DNA from: a virus
DNA: 11,460 nucleotides
IMG/VR virus record: IMGVR_UViG_3300035698_002205
Location: 1-11,460 of that record
Strand: one strand, 5' to 3'
In this document: positions 1 through 11,460 of the stretch, piece by piece
Layout: every line of letters starts with the position of its first letter
How positions within the stretch are numbered: the stretch's first letter is position 1
The notes under the pieces: generated by a model
Told to the model about the DNA's origin: nothing
Databases searched by the model: none
The model's input: the letters and a program-made list of their open reading frames with translations, nothing else
Program-made: the position numbers and the translations under genes

Positions 1-127
1 ATCAACATTCTGATACGTCGTCTCAGCCTGCGAACCAGCACCATCAGTAGAAACCGGGTCAACCGAGAAGTCAGTTATCGCATTGGCTAGGTCGCTCGCG
101 ACCGCCGACCCGATGTTAGTCTCGGGC
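1..127. repeat. Terminal direct repeat, identical to 11334..11460. It closes the window into an 11,333-bp circle.
   Basis: Base-by-base comparison shows atcaacattctgatacg...gttagtctcgggc at both ends. The repeat lies inside the portal reading frame. Its length of 127 equals a common maximum assembler k-mer, so an assembly overlap of a circular contig is more likely than a biological DTR. Confidence 0.95.
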
Positions 128-1621: not shown

Positions 1622-1665
1622 CTTTAAGCTCTTTTATGGAGTAAATAGTATAAAAATGTTTGTAT
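1622..1665 (-). promoter_or_regulatory. AT-rich gap with a TATA-like box (minus sense ATACAAACATTTTTATACTATTTACTCCATAAAAGAGCTTAAAG then ATG)
   Basis: This is one of the few non-overlapping gaps in the genome. TTTATA lies about 30 nt upstream of an ATG that has no SD. It shares the 12-mer AAACATTTTTAT with the region upstream of the tRNA-like gene. Confidence 0.4.
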
Positions 1666-2904
1666 TTAAGCACAATACACGCTGAGCCCCTTATCACGCA
1701 AACACCAACAAGCCCTGACCAGCGCTTCCGTTAAGTGGGAGTAAGCGCCCATAATCCTAATCTTCTTATCAGCGGTGTACTCAAACGTGATACTCTTCAA
1801 ACTACGCAACAAGTCCAAATCGCTAATCAACTCCAACTTACCAGTCTCCATCAACATCAAAGTATGCGAATACAAATCCTCCTTAAGGATTTTGACTCTC
1901 TTCTCTTCACCCTCGACAACAACACCTTTAGAACTGTTATCCAAACCAACAACACGACGCCGACCCAACTTCTCTTGAAGTTGGTCGAGGACAGGTCCTC
2001 CCAATCCCCCACTATCAGTAAATATCCTACGGAATTTCCATTCATCGTCTATGACCCCCGTTTCGCCAACAGTCGCTGTAGTACTCACCCGCGCACGAGT
2101 AAGACACTTAACAGCCTTCAGCTTAGACTGGTGCTCCTCCACAATCACGTAAGCAACCTCATCACCACCATACCGGGCGAGGTCCTGCCCGAGATAATAA
2201 TTAGCGCCTAGTATGGCATCCTCCTTCTTGCTCCACTCAATAAAAGTCATACACTCCTTAATAAGAGTCGTCGGGAAGAACTGCTGATAATCATCAATAA
2301 ACTCACCCAAGTACTCCTGCGCATACTCAACCTTACTCATCCGGCCTTTCTCCTTCCTGAGAAAATCTGCTGGTATTCTCTTACAATCCTCCGAAGACAC
2401 GTGCCAACTACGAAAACTATCATCAGTAAACGAGTCAAAAAAGTACCCACCCTTACCAAAAGGCGTAGACAACAAGACGATGTGACCAAAACCCTTCAAC
2501 TGACGACTCACCGCAATCATCGGCGTCACCGCATTCCAAACAGTCTCAGGAATAAAAGCAGCCTCATCAGCAATCAACAAATCAATCGTGAAACCACGAA
2601 TAAAATGCCCAGTCCGACCAGTAGGCATACAATAAATCCGGGACCCATTACACAACACGATCTTAGTCATCGTCGGCTTCTCAGCCAACTCATCAGCCGC
2701 GAACCGAGCAGTCATCTTCTCAAACAACAAACTAGACTGGCGCTGACTAGCCGCAATCACCATCGTCACCGTCCCCGGATGACGACGAGCAAAATCAGAA
2801 CCCTTCTCCGAGATCACTTCACTCTTACCGACCTGCCTTCCAGTGCGCAACGTGCAATTACCCTCGTAGTCCAAGACCTCCCGCTGCCACTTATCCCACT
2901 TCAT
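1666..2904 (-). CDS. terL: Terminase large subunit, 412 aa
   Basis: Walker A is TGRQVGKS and Walker B is IDLLIADEAAF. The C-terminal RNase-H-like nuclease half carries acidic motifs (GQDLARYGGDEVAYV, IFTDSGGLGG). Confidence 0.93.
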   Translation of the reverse strand: MKWDKWQREVLDYEGNCTLRTGRQVGKSEVISEKGSDFARRHPGTVTMVIAASQRQSSLLFEKMTARFAADELAEKPTMTKIVLCNGSRIYCMPTGRTGHFIRGFTIDLLIADEAAFIPETVWNAVTPMIAVSRQLKGFGHIVLLSTPFGKGGYFFDSFTDDSFRSWHVSSEDCKRIPADFLRKEKGRMSKVEYAQEYLGEFIDDYQQFFPTTLIKECMTFIEWSKKEDAILGANYYLGQDLARYGGDEVAYVIVEEHQSKLKAVKCLTRARVSTTATVGETGVIDDEWKFRRIFTDSGGLGGPVLDQLQEKLGRRRVVGLDNSSKGVVVEGEEKRVKILKEDLYSHTLMLMETGKLELISDLDLLRSLKSITFEYTADKKIRIMGAYSHLTEALVRACWCLRDKGLSVYCA

Positions 2905-3065
2905 ATATCAGCCACCGGCTCAGGCTTCTTCGGACACTTTGAAACAAGTTCACGCATACGAACAACACCTGCCTCAACAACCTCGAGTTGAATCAGCAAC
3001 TGCACCCGCTGTCCTTTGAGTTCCTTCAACGTCAATTCATAATCATCCCTTTGCAAAATTCCCAT
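2901..3065 (-). CDS. Small coiled-coil protein, 54 aa (MGILQRDDYELTLKELKGQRVQLLIQLEVV...); candidate small terminase or packaging accessory
   Basis: The ATG at 3065 follows GGAGGT. The stop overlaps the terL ATG (ATGA). The longer track start at 3113 would run into the tRNA-like T-arm, so I rejected it. Confidence 0.6.
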   Translation of the reverse strand: MGILQRDDYELTLKELKGQRVQLLIQLEVVEAGVVRMRELVSKCPKKPEPVADI

Positions 3066-3083
3066 TTTAACTATACCTCCACA

Positions 3084-3195
3084 TGTCGGCGGCAGGATTC
3101 GAACCTGCAACATATCCTTTCAACGGATGCGGTCAATATTAAACCGTGGACACATCAACCTAGTAATCGCGGCTTTCCTCTCCGCCCTCGCCAAC
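3084..3195 (-). tRNA. tRNA-like gene, 112 nt. The acceptor stem and T-arm are canonical, but the body is about 40 nt too long, suggesting an intron or insertion, or a non-canonical tRNA-like RNA.
   Basis: Minus sense: GTTGGCG AG GGCG GAGAGGAA AGCC G ...40 nt... CATCC GUUGAAA GGAUA UGUU GCAGG UUCGAAU CCUGC CGCCGAC A. The acceptor has 7 bp (one U-G pair). The T-loop is a perfect UUCGAAU. The D-loop has GG at positions 18/19. CCA is not encoded. Confidence 0.45.
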
Positions 3196-3214
3196 TTTTG
3201 CAATAAAAATGTTT
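3196..3214 (-). promoter_or_regulatory. AAACATTTTTAT motif immediately upstream of the tRNA-like gene
   Basis: The 12-mer at 3203..3214 is identical to 1650..1661. It ends only 7 nt before the proposed tRNA 5' end. Confidence 0.3.
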
Positions 3215-3253
3215 CGACCCCAGGCTATACCCACCAACCACAACCAATCAACA

Positions 3254-3273
3254 TTCGCTCATCCACCCACTCA
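3254..3273. repeat. Left arm of the 20-bp perfect inverted repeat (ttcgctcatccacccactca)
   Basis: It is the exact reverse complement of 3578..3597. Confidence 0.95.
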
Positions 3274-3282
3274 CCCACTCAC

Positions 3283-3386
3283 TGGCGGGCGCCCACAAGC
3301 GCCCGCCGGCGAGCGAAGCGAGCCATATCCTACTTGGCGGGCGCCCACAAGCGCCCGCCGGCGAGCGAAGCGAGCCATATCCTACT
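3283..3386. repeat. Perfect tandem duplication, 2 x 52 bp (3283..3334 and 3335..3386)
   Basis: Both units read tggcgggcgcccacaagcgcccgccggcgagcgaagcgagccatatcctact. Each contains the hairpin GGCGGGCGC-CCACAA-GCGCCCGCC and one GCGAAGC. Confidence 0.97.
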
Positions 3387-3577
3387 CACGGGTCACTTGC
3401 TGGGCGTCAAGGGGATTGGGGGTTGACCCCAAGGTGCAGGTGGTAAGAGGCGAAGCCCCACCTGCCCCCCAATCACCGCCAGACGACCGGCAAGGGCGGG
3501 AAGTTAAGAGCTCCATAACTTCCCGAGCCGACAATCAGAGCCCGACGGGGGCGACAAGGCTGACCCGTGAACCTAAC

Positions 3578-3597
3578 TGAGTGGGTGGATGAGCGAA
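3578..3597. repeat. Right arm of the 20-bp perfect inverted repeat (tgagtgggtggatgagcgaa)
   Basis: It is the exact reverse complement of 3254..3273. Confidence 0.95.
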
Positions 3598-3623
3598 GCG
3601 AAGCCACGCCTATCAAGGTGTTC

Positions 3624-3848
3624 TCACCCTTCACTCAAATCATTATCAGTCAATGTGATATCAGAGCCACGATGAAACACTATCCAACCCAGCTTTTTCA
3701 AAGCGTTCTTATTGTTCCTCATGGTCTTAGGGTCAGTCCCGCACTCAAACATGATAGCCCGCTCCAACTGGAGGCGAGGAACGACCGTCATGTTCGGACA
3801 GTGCTTCCGCAACCGCCATAAGACCCGTTCCAAACGCTCAACAGTCAC
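3624..3848 (-). CDS. Small putative winged-helix DNA-binding protein, 74 aa
   Basis: ORF track with a GTG start after AGGGTGA. The ...ERAIMFECGTDPKTMRNNKNALKKLGWIV... pattern resembles the recognition helix plus wing of small wHTH regulators. The product call is by eye only. Confidence 0.6.
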   Translation of the reverse strand: MTVERLERVLWRLRKHCPNMTVVPRLQLERAIMFECGTDPKTMRNNKNALKKLGWIVFHRGSDITLTDNDLSEG

Positions 3849-3962
3849 GAATCACCCTTTTCTTCTTTGCAGGTGCAGTAGTGTCGGTGTACCCCGCATT
3901 GTCGGCAGATAGTGCTTTGTCTGCTTGGCGGGACGAACGGCTCCGCGTACCGCTTCGTCTTG

Positions 3963-4564: not shown

Positions 4565-5359
4565 TCAGAAGATCGTTTTCCAATCATCACCAATGTTAAT
4601 CTGCACTCCTTCGACAGCCTTCCAACTGTCACCAATGTTAATCTTCACACCCTCGACCGTCTTCCAAGCGTCGCCGATGTTAACTTGCAAGTTCGTGCCA
4701 GCCAACGGATTTAAACCCGTCCCGCTATTCCACAACTCCGTCACCTCACTACTCGTTAAGCAACGACTCCAAATACCCATATCATCAATCAACCCTTCAA
4801 AATAATGACCACTAATAAAAGTGTCCGGAGCATTACCATTACCCACACCAGACAACAACCCGAAAGTCGTCGTCGACAAGCTACCGCTATGAGTGAAACT
4901 TCCAGCGCTCGAACCATTAACATACAAGGTAAACGTGTTACCATTCCGCGTCGCAACACAATGCACCCACGAATCAGCAGTGCTCGTCGTATACTCTACT
5001 GAACCCCACGAACTATCGTAAAATAGTAATTTCAAAGAAGTAGTATTCACGTGATCCAACACCAAAATACCACCAGCCCCGCTCGACTGGTTGCCCTTAG
5101 CAAAAACCAATCCTTCAGCATTAACATCACTCTTAAACCACACGCTAATACTAAAATCACCCGTGCCAAAAGCATAATCACCTACGGCACCATTCAAGAT
5201 ATGATCGTTCGTACCATCATAATCATAACAACCAGCACCAAGCTTTTTATTAGTCGTGTCGTGAGTCGCCCCAGTAACAGTGCCATCCTTAGCACCAACA
5301 TCATCATCAGCGTTCACATCCCAACTATAATAATTATCCAAGTCGGTAGTCAAAGCCAT
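4565..5359 (-). CDS. LamG/concanavalin-A-like lectin domain protein with C-terminal 14-aa repeats; candidate receptor-binding or adhesion protein, 264 aa
   Basis: DGT..D....G..GDFSISVWFK...WVHCVATRNGNTFTLYVNG...FEGLIDDMGIWSRCLTSSEVTELW fits the Laminin_G_3 pattern. The tail reads NIGDAWKTVEGV / NIGDSWKAVEGV / NIGDDWKTIF. Confidence 0.8.
   Translation of the reverse strand: MALTTDLDNYYSWDVNADDDVGAKDGTVTGATHDTTNKKLGAGCYDYDGTNDHILNGAVGDYAFGTGDFSISVWFKSDVNAEGLVFAKGNQSSGAGGILVLDHVNTTSLKLLFYDSSWGSVEYTTSTADSWVHCVATRNGNTFTLYVNGSSAGSFTHSGSLSTTTFGLLSGVGNGNAPDTFISGHYFEGLIDDMGIWSRCLTSSEVTELWNSGTGLNPLAGTNLQVNIGDAWKTVEGVKINIGDSWKAVEGVQINIGDDWKTIF
4577..4690 (-). repeat. About 2.7 copies of a 42-bp coding repeat (W codons at 4580, 4622 and 4664)
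   Basis: caatgttaatct.cac.cc.tcgac.g.cttccaa... recurs with a 42-bp period. It encodes (I/V)NIGDxWKx(V)EGVx. Confidence 0.85.
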
Positions 5360-10356: not shown

Positions 10357-11460
10357 GTCTGACCCTCCAACTCTGAGGCTGTGTCATTCGGCTGAGCCGC
10401 GCCTTCAAGCGGCTCCTCTTCTAGTTCCGTCGCTGGAGTATCACTCACCAACTCTTGTTGCAAGCTTGCCGGGAACGTCAGCTGAATCTCAATGTTTAAC
10501 TGGCCGAGAACCTGCTCTTCTATATAGAGCTGTTCTGCTTTCACACTCTGCTCGTAAGCCAAGTAAACAATCTTACCACTAGCATCAGTGAACGCCTTCG
10601 CGTTACCCATGATGATCTGCGGGACATTCACCGCCTGAAAAAAATAATCATTCAACTGAGCAATCCACTGCAAAGGATTCAACGTCGCGTTAGGAGCCAC
10701 ACCCTTCAACTCAACCTCAACCGCCCCCTTAGGAATGTACATGTTCTCCCCAGCGCCAGTCGCCGCATCCTGCTTTGCCTTAAAAGCCGCGACCTCACCC
10801 GGGTCGTCAGTGTCTAAGTGAAAAATCCACTGCGGATAAACGCTCCGATGAAGCACTGTTTTCCAATCATTCATCGCCTCATTACGAGCGAGGATCAACC
10901 ACTGCAGGGAATCGATGATTCTCGTCCCGTGAATCTCATCAGCCACGCGATCATGACTCAAGTGGAAGATCCGCTCCGGCTTAAAACGCTTATTCGGCGT
11001 CTCAGTCTTACTGACTTGTTCGTACCGCTTGATACGACCCTGCGCGTTCTGCACGATCACCATGCTCTCAGGGTCGAGCGGCTTAAGATTGATAAGGTTC
11101 CCTTCCTTATCCCTGATCACCTCAGCAAAACTATCTTTGCTGATGGTCTTTATTTTAATCATGTTCTTAAGAAGAGAATTGAAGCTGTCCTTCCCATTAC
11201 CCTTAATGTTAGCGAGCAGCAACTGAGTAGTCTCGTCAGCCTCGAATCCCGCGCCCACCGTCCAAGTAGCCTTCGCATCAATAGCAATCTTAAACTCCGG
11301 AATCTGCTTATAAAAACCATAATCCTGCGACCAATCAACATTCTGATACGTCGTCTCAGCCTGCGAACCAGCACCATCAGTAGAAACCGGGTCAACCGAG
11401 AAGTCAGTTATCGCATTGGCTAGGTCGCTCGCGACCGCCGACCCGATGTTAGTCTCGGGC
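10353..11460 (-). CDS. Portal protein, about 369 aa in total. Within the window it is truncated by two nt at the 5' end; the ATG is at 129..127 after circularisation.
   Basis: Track ORF 10353..11258 starts at an internal GTG. The frame remains open to the window end. The size, the acidic C-terminus and the position near terL fit a small portal. Confidence 0.8.
   Translation of the reverse strand, partial: PETNIGSAVASDLANAITDFSVDPVSTDGAGSQAETTYQNVDWSQDYGFYKQIPEFKIAIDAKATWTVGAGFEADETTQLLLANIKGNGKDSFNSLLKNMIKIKTISKDSFAEVIRDKEGNLINLKPLDPESMVIVQNAQGRIKRYEQVSKTETPNKRFKPERIFHLSHDRVADEIHGTRIIDSLQWLILARNEAMNDWKTVLHRSVYPQWIFHLDTDDPGEVAAFKAKQDAATGAGENMYIPKGAVEVELKGVAPNATLNPLQWIAQLNDYFFQAVNVPQIIMGNAKAFTDASGKIVYLAYEQSVKAEQLYIEEQVLGQLNIEIQLTFPASLQQELVSDTPATELEEEPLEGAAQPNDTASELEGQT
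11334..11460. repeat. Second copy of the 127-bp terminal repeat
   Basis: Identical to 1..127. Confidence 0.95.

What the first reader, a model, noticed from the sequence alone, without database searches (positions are those of the whole stretch)
3254..3597. 344-bp GC-rich island built of nested perfect helices, bounded by a 20-bp inverted repeat
The island is about 65% G+C in a genome that otherwise looks near 48%. It has no ORF on the coding strand.

Five long-range or local perfect helices nest without crossing: 20, 10, 9, 8 and 10 bp. Two more 9-bp hairpins sit in the tandem repeat. This much perfect self-complementarity in 344 bp is far beyond chance.

The island lies between the early regulators and the tRNA-like gene, just upstream of the packaging genes. 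That is where pac/cos sites, origins, or large phage ncRNAs (often found next to tRNAs) tend to occur. The 20-bp terminal inverted repeats, the size and the compositional contrast also fit a MITE-like insertion. I cannot match it to any RNA family I know; I considered RNase P, SRP, tmRNA, hammerhead and group II domain V.
Basis: seen in the sequence. Interest (0 to 1): 0.8.

Follow-up and report, generated by a model that had tools for sequence, protein, structure and literature searches.

The report
Hairpin-array control region of tiny virus
The 344-base GC-rich stretch of nested hairpins is real and sits at the same spot in a whole family of very small tailed viruses, where it most likely acts as a single-stranded-DNA start signal for copying (or packaging) the genome rather than as a mobile insertion or a known RNA gene.

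Summary
The 20-, 10-, 10-, 9- and 8-bp perfect helices and the two 9-bp hairpins in a perfect 52-nt x2 repeat are all present. The island has 64.8% GC against 49.2% elsewhere. Folding z-scores are -9 to -12, and an independent contig carries the same sequence.

The window is a complete 11.3-kb tailed-virus genome, probably of a DPANN archaeon. In more than 60 related contigs a GC-rich hairpin island lies in the same place: after a small winged-helix gene and before a conserved promoter and the terminase genes.

A core hairpin module (P4-P5-P6) is shared, and its stems change by compensatory substitutions. No Rfam family, tRNA, conserved ORF, intrinsic terminator or dispersed copy was found, so it is not a MITE.

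Three results point to folded DNA rather than RNA:
- The covarying stems contain no G-U pairs.
- Many helices are long and perfect.
- Hairpins are capped, on the strand opposite the genes only, by c(GNA)g or c(GNNA)g loops. These include five copies of d(GCGAAGC), the "extraordinarily stable DNA mini-hairpin" known from single-strand priming origins.

Best reading (about 0.38): a strand-specific single-stranded-DNA initiation signal, that is, an origin. Rivals are a structured RNA (about 0.27) and a packaging site (about 0.2).

The parts
3254..3604 (+). The whole GC-rich hairpin-array island. The + strand (opposite to all genes) carries the stable loop caps.
   Evidence: Repeats and folds. GC content. 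Independent contig. Strand bias of the caps.
3254..3273 (.). Left arm of closing helix P1 (TTCGCTCATCCACCCACTCA). It pairs with 3578-3597.
   Evidence: 20/20 complementary. Equivalent long closing helices of different sequence occur in 7 of 20 relatives.
3578..3597 (.). Right arm of closing helix P1 (TGAGTGGGTGGATGAGCGAA).
3283..3386 (.). Perfect tandem repeat, 2 x 52 nt. Each unit has a 9-bp hairpin (GGCGGGCGC/GCGCCCGCC) and a GGC-[GAGCGAAGCGA]-GCC mini-hairpin unit.
   Evidence: Relatives carry different tandem units of about 52-74 nt. L096 lacks one TCGCT pentamer here.
3386..3395 (.). Helix P3, left arm (TCACGGGTCA). It pairs with 3561-3570 and encloses the conserved core.
   Evidence: 10/10. 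The CACGGGTCAGCC block can be aligned by eye with GCTCACGTCCCAGCC of relatives.
3561..3570 (.). Helix P3, right arm (TGACCCGTGA).
3414..3474 (-). Conserved module P4-P5-P6, read on the gene strand: GATTGGGGG-G-CAGGTGG-[GGCTTCGCCTCTTA]-CCACCTG-CACCTTGGGGTCAA-CCCCCAATC.
   Evidence: The same module with different stems occurs in L008, L027, L066, L069, L070, L073, L080, L085, L112 and L122. Covariation.
3431..3467 (-). P5 hairpin, hit by covariance model R1, which was built from five relatives without the window.
   Evidence: 31.4 bits, E = 3.7e-5, on the minus strand only.
3497..3525 (.). Local 10-bp perfect hairpin (CGGGAAGTTA/TAACTTCCCG).
3527..3560 (.). Local GC-rich hairpin (GCC...GGC with an inner CCCC/GGGG helix).
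   Evidence: MFE folds.
3313..3319 (+). d(GCGAAGC) mini-hairpin motif, copy 1. Other copies are at 3365-3371, 3450-3456 (the cap of P5), 3593-3599 and 3598-3604.
   Evidence: There are 5 matches in the window, all on the + strand and all between 3313 and 3604.
3244..3259 (-). Conserved boundary motif AGCGAATGTTGATTGG (family consensus GCGAATCTTGATTGG). Its first bases form the end of P1.
   Evidence: Present in about 20 relatives, at a fixed ~34 nt before the T-run of the promoter.
3230..3243 (-). G/T-rich tract (TTGTGGTTGGTGGG), made of GGTTG/TTGTT-type repeats in relatives.
3203..3212 (-). Archaeal-type BRE/TATA-like promoter motif ACATTTTTAT, heading the terS-like/TerL genes.
   Evidence: Conserved in relatives. 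A second copy lies at 1659-1650.
3624..3848 (-). Conserved 74-aa winged-helix protein gene that always precedes the island.
   Evidence: Alignments A4 and A11. AlphaFold2 pLDDT 90; the fold search returns only generic winged-helix neighbours.
1666..3068 (-). Small coiled-coil ORF (3068-2901) and terminase large subunit (2904-1666), downstream of the island.
   Evidence: Pfam Terminase_6N, E = 6e-12. The small ORF is conserved.

Best explanation
The island is a cis-acting DNA element, not a gene and not an insertion. It is conserved in position across a family of roughly 10-12.6-kb tailed viruses that probably infect DPANN archaea.

Proposed mechanism: when the window's + strand becomes single-stranded, it folds into a closed, nested array of GC-rich hairpins. 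The + strand is the complement of all mRNAs and the template for DNA synthesis running in the direction of the genes. Many hairpin tips are DNA 'mini-hairpins': c(GNA)g or c(GNNA)g loops, including five copies of d(GCGAAGC). By analogy with phage G4 oric, RSF1010 ssiA/ssiB and the single-strand origins of rolling-circle plasmids, such a compact fold would mark where a host primase or RNA polymerase lays down the primer. The fold is expected to bind single-strand-binding protein poorly and to resist nucleases. DNA synthesis would then run co-directionally with the whole gene array. The virus encodes no recognisable replication protein.

Shown here: the structure, its conservation, compensatory stem changes, strand-specific cap bias, lack of coding capacity, and lack of mobility.

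Inferred: that the relevant molecule is DNA, that the process is priming of replication, and that host enzymes recognise the fold.
For: 1. The element has a fixed place in the gene order. A GC-rich island of 200-650 nt lies between the winged-helix gene and the conserved promoter plus terminase genes in nearly all relatives. Background GC in those genomes ranges from 33% to 50%.

2. The core is homologous and its stems covary. A model built without the window finds window 3431-3467(-) at E = 3.7e-5. For helix P5:
- 5 of 7 pairs changed on both sides.
- 98.7% of cells are paired.
- Covariation score is 0.574, against 0.141 in shuffles (0 of 500 reach it).
For helix P4, 88.7% of cells are paired against 63.9% in shuffles (0 of 2000 reach it).

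3. The pairing looks DNA-like.
- There are no G-T wobble cells in the P4 and P5 covariation tables.
- Closing helices of 15-21 bp with at most one mismatch occur in 7 of 20 islands, each with a different sequence.
- G-U counts in the MFE folds show no strand bias, 75 against 79.

4. The hairpin caps are strand-specific and of the stable-DNA type.
- GCGAAGC occurs 5 times on the + strand, all inside 3313-3604, and never on the - strand of the window.
- Across the family it occurs 44 times on the non-coding strand and 15 times on the coding strand.
- Among hairpins closed by C-G, the three commonest triloops on the non-coding strand are GAA, GCA and GGA.
- GNA loops number 47 against 30.3 expected if the loop positions were independent (Fisher 1.8e-6). 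This holds only for C-G closure.
- Inside islands, c(GNA)g numbers 22 on the non-coding strand against 5 on the coding strand, and c(GNNA)g 8 against 0.
- Density is 0.91 per kb in islands against 0.08 per kb elsewhere.
- The bias was replicated on hairpins from 79 newly fetched loci that had not been seen before: 33 against 10 upstream of TerL (p = 6e-4), and 19 against 13 in the TerL zone.

5. Known biology. The review PMC13037366 states that GCGAAGC and GCGAAAGC mini-hairpins are exceptionally stable DNA structures. It reports them at the G4 primase start site, in RSF1010 ssiA and in N4 hairpin promoters, and reports that SSB binds them poorly.

6. No replication, primase, Rep or integrase gene was recognised in the genome. 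This is the largest intergenic gap, 555 nt.
Against: - No process is shown that exposes the + strand as single-stranded DNA. No Rep/HUH nuclease or dedicated primase is encoded, unlike in every known system that uses ssi or sso signals.
- GNA and GNRA caps are also acceptable in RNA, so a + strand RNA is not excluded by the cap bias alone.
- Two of the nine P5 caps are GCAAAGC, which is not a GNA loop.
- Four cUNCGg tetraloops (an RNA-type cap) lie on the gene strand and none on the other strand.
- The whole-window count of GCGAAGC is only modestly above chance: 5 against 1.8 expected, reached in 9 of 200 shuffles. Two copies come from the tandem duplication and two overlap.
- The island is GC-rich, not AT-rich as classical unwinding elements are.
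- The island will in any case be transcribed as the tail of the winged-helix gene mRNA unless transcription stops earlier.
- The host assignment rests on metagenome bins that also include two bacterial bins.
Confidence: 0.38

Rival explanations
1. A structured non-coding RNA. One form is the 3' tail of the winged-helix gene transcript, perhaps cut out at the closing helix. The other is an antisense RNA read from the + strand. Either would act as a protein-binding scaffold or sponge through its repeated CGCUUCGCU / GCGAAGC loops.
For: - A GC-rich island in AT-richer genomes is the classical signature of a structural RNA.
- The architecture is nested and multi-branched, with long-range helices.
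- Stems covary while loop sequences stay conserved.
- The motif occurs in one orientation only.
- The island follows a gene directly, with no terminator between them, so the gene strand is almost certainly transcribed.
- GNRA and GNA caps on the + strand, and 4 cUNCGg caps on the - strand, are RNA-compatible.
Against: - It matches no Rfam family.
- There are no G-U pairs in the P4 and P5 covariation tables, and no strand bias in G-U use.
- Perfect 15-21-bp helices are unusual for natural RNAs.
- The stable caps lie on the strand opposite the genes, and no promoter was seen for that strand. The BRE/TATA motif is oriented toward the late genes.
- The recurrent caps are triloops closed by C-G. 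That is the DNA mini-hairpin rule, not the RNA tetraloop rule.
Confidence: 0.27
2. The DNA packaging start (pac or cos region). The terminase, possibly helped by the adjacent winged-helix protein and the small coiled-coil protein, would recognise the repeated TCGCT/GCGAAGC motifs or extruded hairpins and cut here to begin packaging.
For: - The island lies directly upstream of the terS-like and TerL genes, the usual place for cos and pac sites.
- It carries repeated short motifs and tandem repeats.
- Near-complete contigs of relatives very often end inside or next to the island.
- The helices are strictly Watson-Crick on both strands, which would suit cruciform extrusion.
Against: - Contig ends are scattered over the island rather than at one site. 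Other assemblies of the same virus read straight through: L027 and L028 against L007, L025 and L026.
- The window itself assembles as a circle.
- Known pac and cos sites do not need long-range nested helices or one-strand-specific loop caps.
- No canonical small terminase was recognised.
Confidence: 0.2
3. A transcriptional insulator or 3'-end protector. A block of very stable RNA hairpins would stop or shield transcripts coming from the upstream genes before the late promoter.
For: - It lies exactly between the last upstream gene and a conserved promoter.
- All genes are co-oriented on a circular map.
- A T5 run follows the island, inside the TATA motif.
Against: - No hairpin followed by a T-run was found on either strand.
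- Conserved loop sequences, a conserved module and a cap bias on the antisense strand are not needed for this role.
- By established knowledge, archaeal termination depends on oligo-T tracts and not on hairpins.
Confidence: 0.07
4. A passive or selfish sequence: a MITE-like insertion, or neutral build-up of palindromic GC-rich repeats in the only tolerant intergenic gap.
For: - A perfect 20-bp inverted repeat lies at the borders.
- Perfect tandem duplications differ between genomes.
- A pentamer indel separates near-identical genomes.
- The composition contrasts with the rest of the genome.
Against: - No relative has an empty site.
- The core module is homologous and covaries.
- The bordering helix has a different sequence in each genome and overlaps conserved boundary motifs.
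- There is no target-site duplication.
- No second copy exists in the window and there are no hits in IMG/VR.
- The strand-specific cap bias argues for selection.
Confidence: 0.05

Closest known systems
Single-strand initiation signals that contain DNA mini-hairpins (phage G4 oric primase site; RSF1010 oriV ssiA/ssiB)
   Same: - Non-coding, GC-rich hairpins on one particular strand.
- Hairpins capped by c(GNA)g or c(GNNA)g loops such as GCGAAGC, GCGAAAGC and CCGAAGG.
- Orientation-specific.
- Proposed to escape SSB and to position a primase (PMC13037366).
   Different: - Those elements are about 50-150 nt and work in single-stranded DNA phages or in plasmids that encode their own primase or Rep.
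- This element is 200-650 nt, is closed by a long-range helix and carries tandem repeats.
- It sits in a tailed dsDNA virus with no recognisable replication gene.
- Priming was not tested.
Single-strand origins (ssoA, ssoU and others) of rolling-circle plasmids
   Same: From established knowledge:
- 150-300 nt with extensive intrastrand pairing.
- They function in one orientation only.
- Short conserved loop motifs (RSB, CS-6) with otherwise variable stems.
- Located in a non-coding region next to the main replication or expression signals.
   Different: - No rolling-circle Rep or double-strand origin is recognisable here.
- The RSB and CS-6 consensus motifs were not looked for.
- The host is probably archaeal.
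Phage N4 early promoters (template-strand DNA hairpins)
   Same: Short GC stems with GNA-type triloops (GGA, GAA), extruded on the template strand upstream of genes (PMC13037366). Here the caps also lie on the template strand of the downstream operon.
   Different: - N4 needs its giant virion RNA polymerase, and no polymerase is encoded here.
- N4 promoters are single 5-7-bp hairpins, not a nested array.
Large structured ncRNAs of phages (ROOL, GOLLD) and phi29 pRNA
   Same: Large, GC-rich, highly structured non-coding regions of phage genomes. They are often found next to tRNA genes, or in the case of pRNA are linked to packaging.
   Different: - No match to any Rfam model.
- No G-U pairs.
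- The stable caps lie on the strand opposite the genes.
- No promoter of its own was seen.
- The tRNA-like neighbour is sub-threshold and unique to this genome.
pac and cos regions of tailed phages (lambda cosB, P1 pac, SPP1 pac)
   Same: An intergenic region at the head of the terminase genes that carries repeated short motifs.
   Different: - Known sites work as double-stranded protein-binding sites.
- They do not show covarying long-range helices or one-strand loop-cap bias.
- Genome ends were not mapped here.
MITEs
   Same: Similar size, perfect terminal inverted repeat, and a composition that contrasts with the surroundings.
   Different: - Found at the orthologous position in all relatives.
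- No dispersed copies and no target-site duplication.
- The arm sequences differ in each genome.

Membership tests
Any Rfam family (tRNA, RNase P, SRP, tmRNA, GOLLD, ROOL, HEARO, pRNA, ribozymes and others) | The covariance model scores at or above the family's gathering threshold. | tested here: not met
   No match at gathering thresholds in the window or in 11 related loci. With a permissive E-value only chance-level miRNA hits fall in the island. The neighbouring tRNA-like element scores 25.5 bits, below the 29-bit threshold. ARAGORN calls nothing.
MITE | Multiple dispersed, near-identical copies. | tested here: not met
   No second copy in the window. The 20-mer terminal repeat and the 24-mer hairpin give 0 hits in IMG/VR. 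No blastn hit in the phage collection. Host genomes could not be searched.
MITE | Related genomes have empty sites; the insertion is flanked by a target-site duplication. | tested here: not met
   All relatives carry an island at the same site. The flanks are CAATCAACA and GCGAAGCCAC, with no duplication.
MITE | Terminal inverted repeat sequence is shared by members of the family. | tested here: not met
   The closing-helix arms differ completely between genomes.
ssDNA initiation signal with mini-hairpins (G4 oric / ssiA type) | Stable hairpins capped by c(GNA)g or c(GNNA)g on one specific strand. | tested here: met
   Five GCGAAGC copies, on the + strand only. Family-wide cap bias: 22 against 5 and 8 against 0 inside islands. 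Replicated at 33 against 10. The excess is specific to C-G closure.
ssDNA initiation signal with mini-hairpins (G4 oric / ssiA type) | Primase or RNA polymerase starts a primer on the folded single strand. | not testable with these tools
   This needs biochemistry or origin mapping.
ssDNA initiation signal / rolling-circle single-strand origin | The replicon has a single-stranded stage, with its own Rep, primase or double-strand origin. | tested here: not met
   No Rep, HUH, primase or polymerase domain was found in any ORF by Pfam or PHROGs. Absence of a hit is not proof of absence.
Iteron-type origin | Several direct repeats of one initiator-binding site, an adjacent initiator gene, and an AT-rich unwinding element. 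| tested here: inconclusive
   - TCGCT-pentamer doublets occur several times per island in one orientation. The tandem units differ in each genome.
- The adjacent winged-helix protein is a generic winged-helix fold.
- An AT-rich promoter region follows the island.
pac / cos site | Defined DNA ends or terminase cleavage at the site. | not testable with these tools
   Only indirect evidence is available. The island is adjacent to TerL, and contig ends cluster in the island but are scattered within it.
Intrinsic transcription terminator | GC-rich hairpin followed directly by a T-run. | tested here: not met
   0 sites in 3000-3900 on either strand, against 1.1 expected in shuffles.
Structured ncRNA (generic) | Compensatory base-pair changes that include G-U intermediates, its own promoter and terminator, and a detectable transcript. 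| tested here: inconclusive
   Compensatory changes are present, but with no G-U. No promoter or terminator of its own was found. The transcript cannot be tested.

The most novel reading that the evidence does not exclude
The island is the complete replication origin of a tailed virus that carries no replication genes. A strand-specific array of DNA mini-hairpins would recruit the host's (archaeal) primase or RNA polymerase directly onto unwound DNA. Leading-strand synthesis would then start co-directionally with all genes. This would be an archaeal-virus, double-stranded-DNA counterpart of the G4 oric and ssi/sso signals. To my knowledge no such mechanism is described for any tailed virus or any archaeal virus.
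Probability: 0.25. Interest if true: 0.8.

Novelty: new variant of a known kind. Interest (0 to 1): 0.55.

Why it matters
These viruses are about 11.3 kb. That is below the 11.6 kb quoted for the smallest isolated tailed phages (bioRxiv 10.1101/2025.06.18.659913). They encode capsid, portal and terminase but nothing recognisable for replication.

The island is the one large non-coding region. It is conserved in place, structure and strand polarity across hundreds of metagenomic relatives.

If it is a hairpin-type initiation signal, it would explain how a minimal tailed virus of reduced-genome archaea gets copied by host enzymes. It would also extend the biology of 'mini-hairpin' DNA from single-stranded phages and plasmids to double-stranded archaeal viruses.

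If it is instead an RNA, it would be a new family of large viral non-coding RNAs in archaea.

In practice it also explains why assemblies of this virus family break at this position.

Tried and rejected
- Rfam at gathering and permissive thresholds, and ARAGORN: nothing.
- blastn of the island against GenBank phages: no match.
- Exact-pattern scans of IMG/VR for the W hairpin and the 20-mer arm: 0 hits. The conserved hpB block found only 2 contigs.
- MAFFT plus RNAalifold on whole cores: the alignment was too poor to give a meaningful consensus. Only a 3-bp helix around the hpB block showed covariation.
- nhmmer with the hpB block did not reach the window.
- RNAduplex energies of cognate against non-cognate island ends were uninformative, because C/A-rich and G/T-rich arms cross-pair. 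This was replaced by a longest-helix test.
- Bulge-helix-bulge processing motifs in the closing helix of the window: none seen by eye in the perfect 20-bp helix.
- cUUCGg tetraloop idea: the stems are in the triloop register, not the tetraloop register.
- Reading the tandem repeats as a mini-CRISPR array was rejected, because whole 52-nt units are identical, so there are no spacers.
- Island ORFs on both strands have no homologues.
- The winged-helix protein gives only a generic fold and no specific family: profile search against PDB sequences E = 0.8, Foldseek E > 0.01.
- PHROGs and Pfam on all remaining ORFs found no replication function.
- Bacterial-type terminators: none.
- Literature searches for described viruses of Pacearchaeota or other DPANN archaea found nothing that matches this family.
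Full report
OBSERVATION

- A 20/20 inverted repeat, 3254-3273 with 3578-3597.
- Perfect 10-bp helices, 3386-3395 with 3561-3570 and 3497-3506 with 3516-3525.
- A 9-bp helix (GATTGGGGG/CCCCCAATC) and an 8-bp helix (GCAGGTGG/CCACCTGC), nested inside.
- A perfect 52-nt x2 tandem repeat at 3283-3386, each unit with a 9-bp hairpin.

The island is 64.8% GC against 49.2% for the rest of the window.

It folds far better than dinucleotide shuffles on both strands:
- RNA parameters give z = -12.1 (+ strand) and -8.7 (- strand).
- DNA parameters give z = -11.0 and -8.7.

An independent 751-nt ENA contig carries the same island. It differs only by the loss of one TCGCT pentamer, so the island is not an assembly artefact.

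Mechanical ORFs cross the island on both strands. None has a homologue in about 100 related loci, while the two flanking small genes do. The region is therefore non-coding.

CONTEXT

The window has identical 127-bp ends, so it is a complete circular assembly of 11,333 bp. All genes lie on the minus strand. Those recognised are portal, cement-like protein, HK97-type capsid, a Laminin_G_3 fibre protein, terminase large subunit and an SNase homologue. No replication, integration or polymerase function was recognised by Pfam or PHROGs.

On the host:
- The best named TerL relative is an archaeal tailed virus, Halogranum HGTV-1, at 30% identity.
- Close relatives sit as 6-11-kb contigs in bins labelled Pacearchaeota (two), 'uncultured archaeon' (two), Bacteroidota and Balneolia.
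- The promoters look like archaeal BRE/TATA elements.

A DPANN-archaeal host is therefore an inference, not a result.

The island lies in the largest intergenic gap, 3069-3623, 555 nt.

THE ELEMENT IS A FAMILY FEATURE, NOT AN INSERTION

TerL and the small winged-helix protein encoded just upstream (3848-3624) were used to fetch about 180 loci. These came from IMG/VR, JGI metagenomes, GTDB genomes and ENA/Logan assemblies.

Wherever the region is on the contig, the order is the same:
1. The winged-helix gene.
2. A GC-enriched stretch of about 200-650 nt. It runs at 0.45-0.68 GC against genome backgrounds of 0.33-0.50.
3. A conserved motif, GCGAATCTTGATTGG.
4. A G/T-rich tract.
5. A conserved AAA(C/T)TTTTTAT promoter motif at a fixed distance.
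6. A small coiled-coil ORF.
7. TerL.

This order is supported.

There are no empty sites. Exact searches for the window's hairpin and for its 20-mer arm found nothing in IMG/VR. There is no target-site duplication. In 7 of 20 non-redundant islands the ends are joined by a 15-21-bp helix with at most one mismatch. The sequence of this helix is different in each genome. Non-cognate pairs reach at most 15 bp, with a 99th percentile of 12. The MITE reading is rejected.

A CONSERVED, COVARYING CORE

Ten or more islands share a module, read here on the gene strand:

P4 - P5 [loop GG CUUCG CC UCUUA] - CA - P6 - YAA - P4'

In the window it occupies 3474-3414. A covariance model of P5 was built from five relatives without the window. 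It finds window 3431-3467(-) at E = 3.7e-5.

In P5:
- 5 of 7 pairs show changes on both sides.
- 98.7% of cells pair.
- The covariation score is 0.574, against 0.141 in shuffles (0 of 500 reach it).
- Slid-partner controls collapse.

In P4, from a hand alignment, 88.7% of cells pair against 63.9% in shuffles (0 of 2000 reach it).

A second conserved block, TTCGCTTAATTCGAA.AACGCTC.GGTC, links other subclades. It is enclosed by a short helix that also covaries. The window keeps only its 3' half, CACGGGTCAGCC, which forms helix P3.

Around this core each genome has its own tandem repeats of hairpin-bearing units: 52 nt x2 in the window, and units of about 60-74 nt repeated 3-4 times in L008, L034, L040 and L070.

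The pentamer-repeat motif TCGCTTCGCTC recurs in the islands in one orientation only. It occurs 43 times on the gene strand. The 13 reverse occurrences are scattered elsewhere.

WHAT IT IS NOT

- It matches no Rfam family, in the window or in relatives, even at permissive thresholds.
- It contains no tRNA.
- No hairpin followed by a T-run occurs on either strand.
- No promoter is placed to drive an island RNA of its own. The BRE/TATA motif next to it points toward the terminase genes.

WHICH STRAND AND WHICH MOLECULE

Three observations argue that the helices are selected as DNA.

First, the covarying stems change only from one Watson-Crick pair to another. The P4 and P5 covariation tables contain no G-T wobble cells and one A-C cell. 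G-U counts in the MFE folds show no strand bias, 75 against 79.

Second, many helices are long and perfect, and they differ between relatives. This is unusual for natural RNAs. It is expected if inverted repeats are made and corrected at the DNA level.

Third, the hairpin tips are biased on one strand. The recurring gene-strand motif GCTTCGC is d(GCGAAGC) on the window's + strand.
- The window has five copies, all on the + strand and all within 3313-3604, and none on the - strand.
- Across the family, the commonest triloops on the non-coding strand among hairpins closed by C-G are GAA, GCA and GGA.
- GNA loops exceed the expectation from independent loop positions, 47 against 30.3 (Fisher 1.8e-6). 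This holds for C-G closure only, not for G-C or A-T closure.
- Inside islands, c(GNA)g numbers 22 on the non-coding strand against 5 on the gene strand, and c(GNNA)g 8 against 0.
- Density is 0.91 per kb in islands against 0.08 per kb elsewhere.
- On hairpins from 79 newly fetched loci that had not been seen before, the bias was reproduced: 33 against 10 upstream of TerL (p = 6e-4), and 19 against 13 in and after TerL.

GCGAAGC, GCGAAAGC and the c(GNA)g class are the 'extraordinarily stable mini-hairpin DNA' reviewed in PMC13037366. The review reports them at the primase start site of the phage G4 complementary-strand origin, in ssiA of RSF1010 oriV and in phage N4 hairpin promoters. It also reports that SSB binds such hairpins poorly.

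MOST LIKELY MECHANISM (confidence about 0.38)

The island is a cis-acting DNA signal that works when the + strand is single-stranded. That strand is the template for DNA synthesis running in the same direction as every gene.

The proposed steps are:
1. The strand folds into a closed array of mini-hairpin-capped stems.
2. The fold stays free of single-strand-binding protein.
3. It positions a host primase or RNA polymerase.
4. The primer is extended through the adjacent AT-rich promoter region and around the genome.

This is how G4 oric, ssiA/ssiB and plasmid single-strand origins work. It would fit a virus with no replication genes.

Shown here: structure, conservation, covariation, strand-specific caps, absence of coding capacity, and absence of mobility.

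Inferred: that the molecule is DNA, that the process is priming, and that the enzymes are the host's.

Weak points:
- No Rep or primase is encoded, and no single-stranded stage is known.
- GNA and GNRA caps are also tolerated in RNA.
- Two of the nine P5 caps are GCAAAGC.
- Four cUNCGg caps lie on the gene strand.
- The window-level count of GCGAAGC is only modestly above chance.

RIVALS

- A structured RNA, either the 3' tail of the winged-helix mRNA or an antisense RNA, remains plausible (about 0.27). The region is GC-rich, multi-branched and covarying, and it is certainly transcribed on the gene strand.
- A packaging start is also plausible (about 0.2). The island heads the terminase genes, and near-complete contigs of relatives very often break within it. 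However, the break points are scattered, other assemblies of the same virus read through them, and the window assembles as a circle.
- A terminator or insulator role (about 0.07) is poorly supported.
- A passive or selfish sequence (about 0.05) is also poorly supported.

COMPARISON AND NOVELTY

In how it works, the nearest known systems are mini-hairpin-containing single-strand initiation signals and plasmid single-strand origins. It cannot be filed as a member of those families. Priming is untested, and the accompanying Rep or primase is missing.

It differs from them in four ways: size, a long-range closing helix, fast-evolving tandem units, and its setting in a minimal tailed dsDNA virus that probably infects archaea.

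I rate it a new variant of a known kind and moderately interesting (0.55). It is a real, family-wide, strongly selected element. Its function can be tested directly, and the answer bears on how the smallest tailed viruses replicate.

Noticed in passing
window 1-127 and 11334-11460: The ends are identical over 127 bp. The window is therefore a complete circular (or terminally redundant) assembly with a unit length of 11,333 bp. That is below the 11.6 kb quoted for the smallest isolated tailed phages (bioRxiv 10.1101/2025.06.18.659913).
   Followed up: partly
window 3084-3151 (- strand): A tRNA-like element with a perfect T-arm (GCAGGTTCGAATCCTGC) but a poor acceptor stem and D-arm. Rfam tRNA gives 25.5 bits, below the 29-bit threshold, and ARAGORN does not call it. 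It lies between the late promoter and the ribosome-binding site of the small ORF (ATG at 3068). It is absent from the relatives examined.
   Followed up: partly
window 3203-3212 and 1650-1659 (- strand): The promoter-like motif AAACATTTTTAT (BRE/TATA-like) occurs twice: after the island and just after TerL. The first copy is conserved at a fixed distance from the island boundary in relatives.
   Followed up: partly
window 3230-3259 (- strand); L027 960-1030; L097; L098: The conserved 16-mer AGCGAATGTTGATTGG is followed by a G/T-rich tract of GGTTG/TTGTT-type repeats. The tract looks telomere-like or G-quadruplex-prone. It is often the 3' arm of the long closing helix.
   Followed up: partly
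window 4578-4683: A 42-nt tandem repeat (2.5 copies, 81% matches) lies inside the C-terminal part of the Laminin_G_3 fibre-like gene. It encodes repeated INIGD.WK.VEGV segments.
   Followed up: no
whole window: No replication, integrase, polymerase or tail-tube gene was recognised by Pfam or PHROGs. A staphylococcal-nuclease homologue (1232-714, - strand) follows TerL and is conserved in L098.
   Followed up: partly
L001, L003, L007, L021, L039, L042, L064, L076, L082, L084, L091 and others: Contigs of relatives, including near-complete ones of 9-12.7 kb, very often end inside or next to the island. The end positions are scattered. This fits assembly failure at repeats, stable hairpins or strain-variable sequence, but real genome ends are not excluded.
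   Followed up: partly
L096 versus window 3363-3367: Two otherwise identical genomes differ by one TCGCT pentamer in the first tandem unit. This suggests slippage-type copy-number variation of the motif within populations.
   Followed up: yes
L030 ~1750-1850; L037 ~50-250; L077 ~3100-3300; L090 ~3650-3800: Some relatives have extremely AT-rich stretches (GC 0.10-0.22) within 0.4-1.3 kb of the island. These could be DNA-unwinding elements.
   Followed up: no
L039, L044 (Pacearchaeota bins); L041, L043 (uncultured archaeon); L040, L042 (Bacteroidota and Balneolia bins): Whole-genome-sized contigs of this virus family are binned into metagenome-assembled genomes of DPANN archaea, but also of bacteria. 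The host assignment is therefore suggestive only.
   Followed up: no
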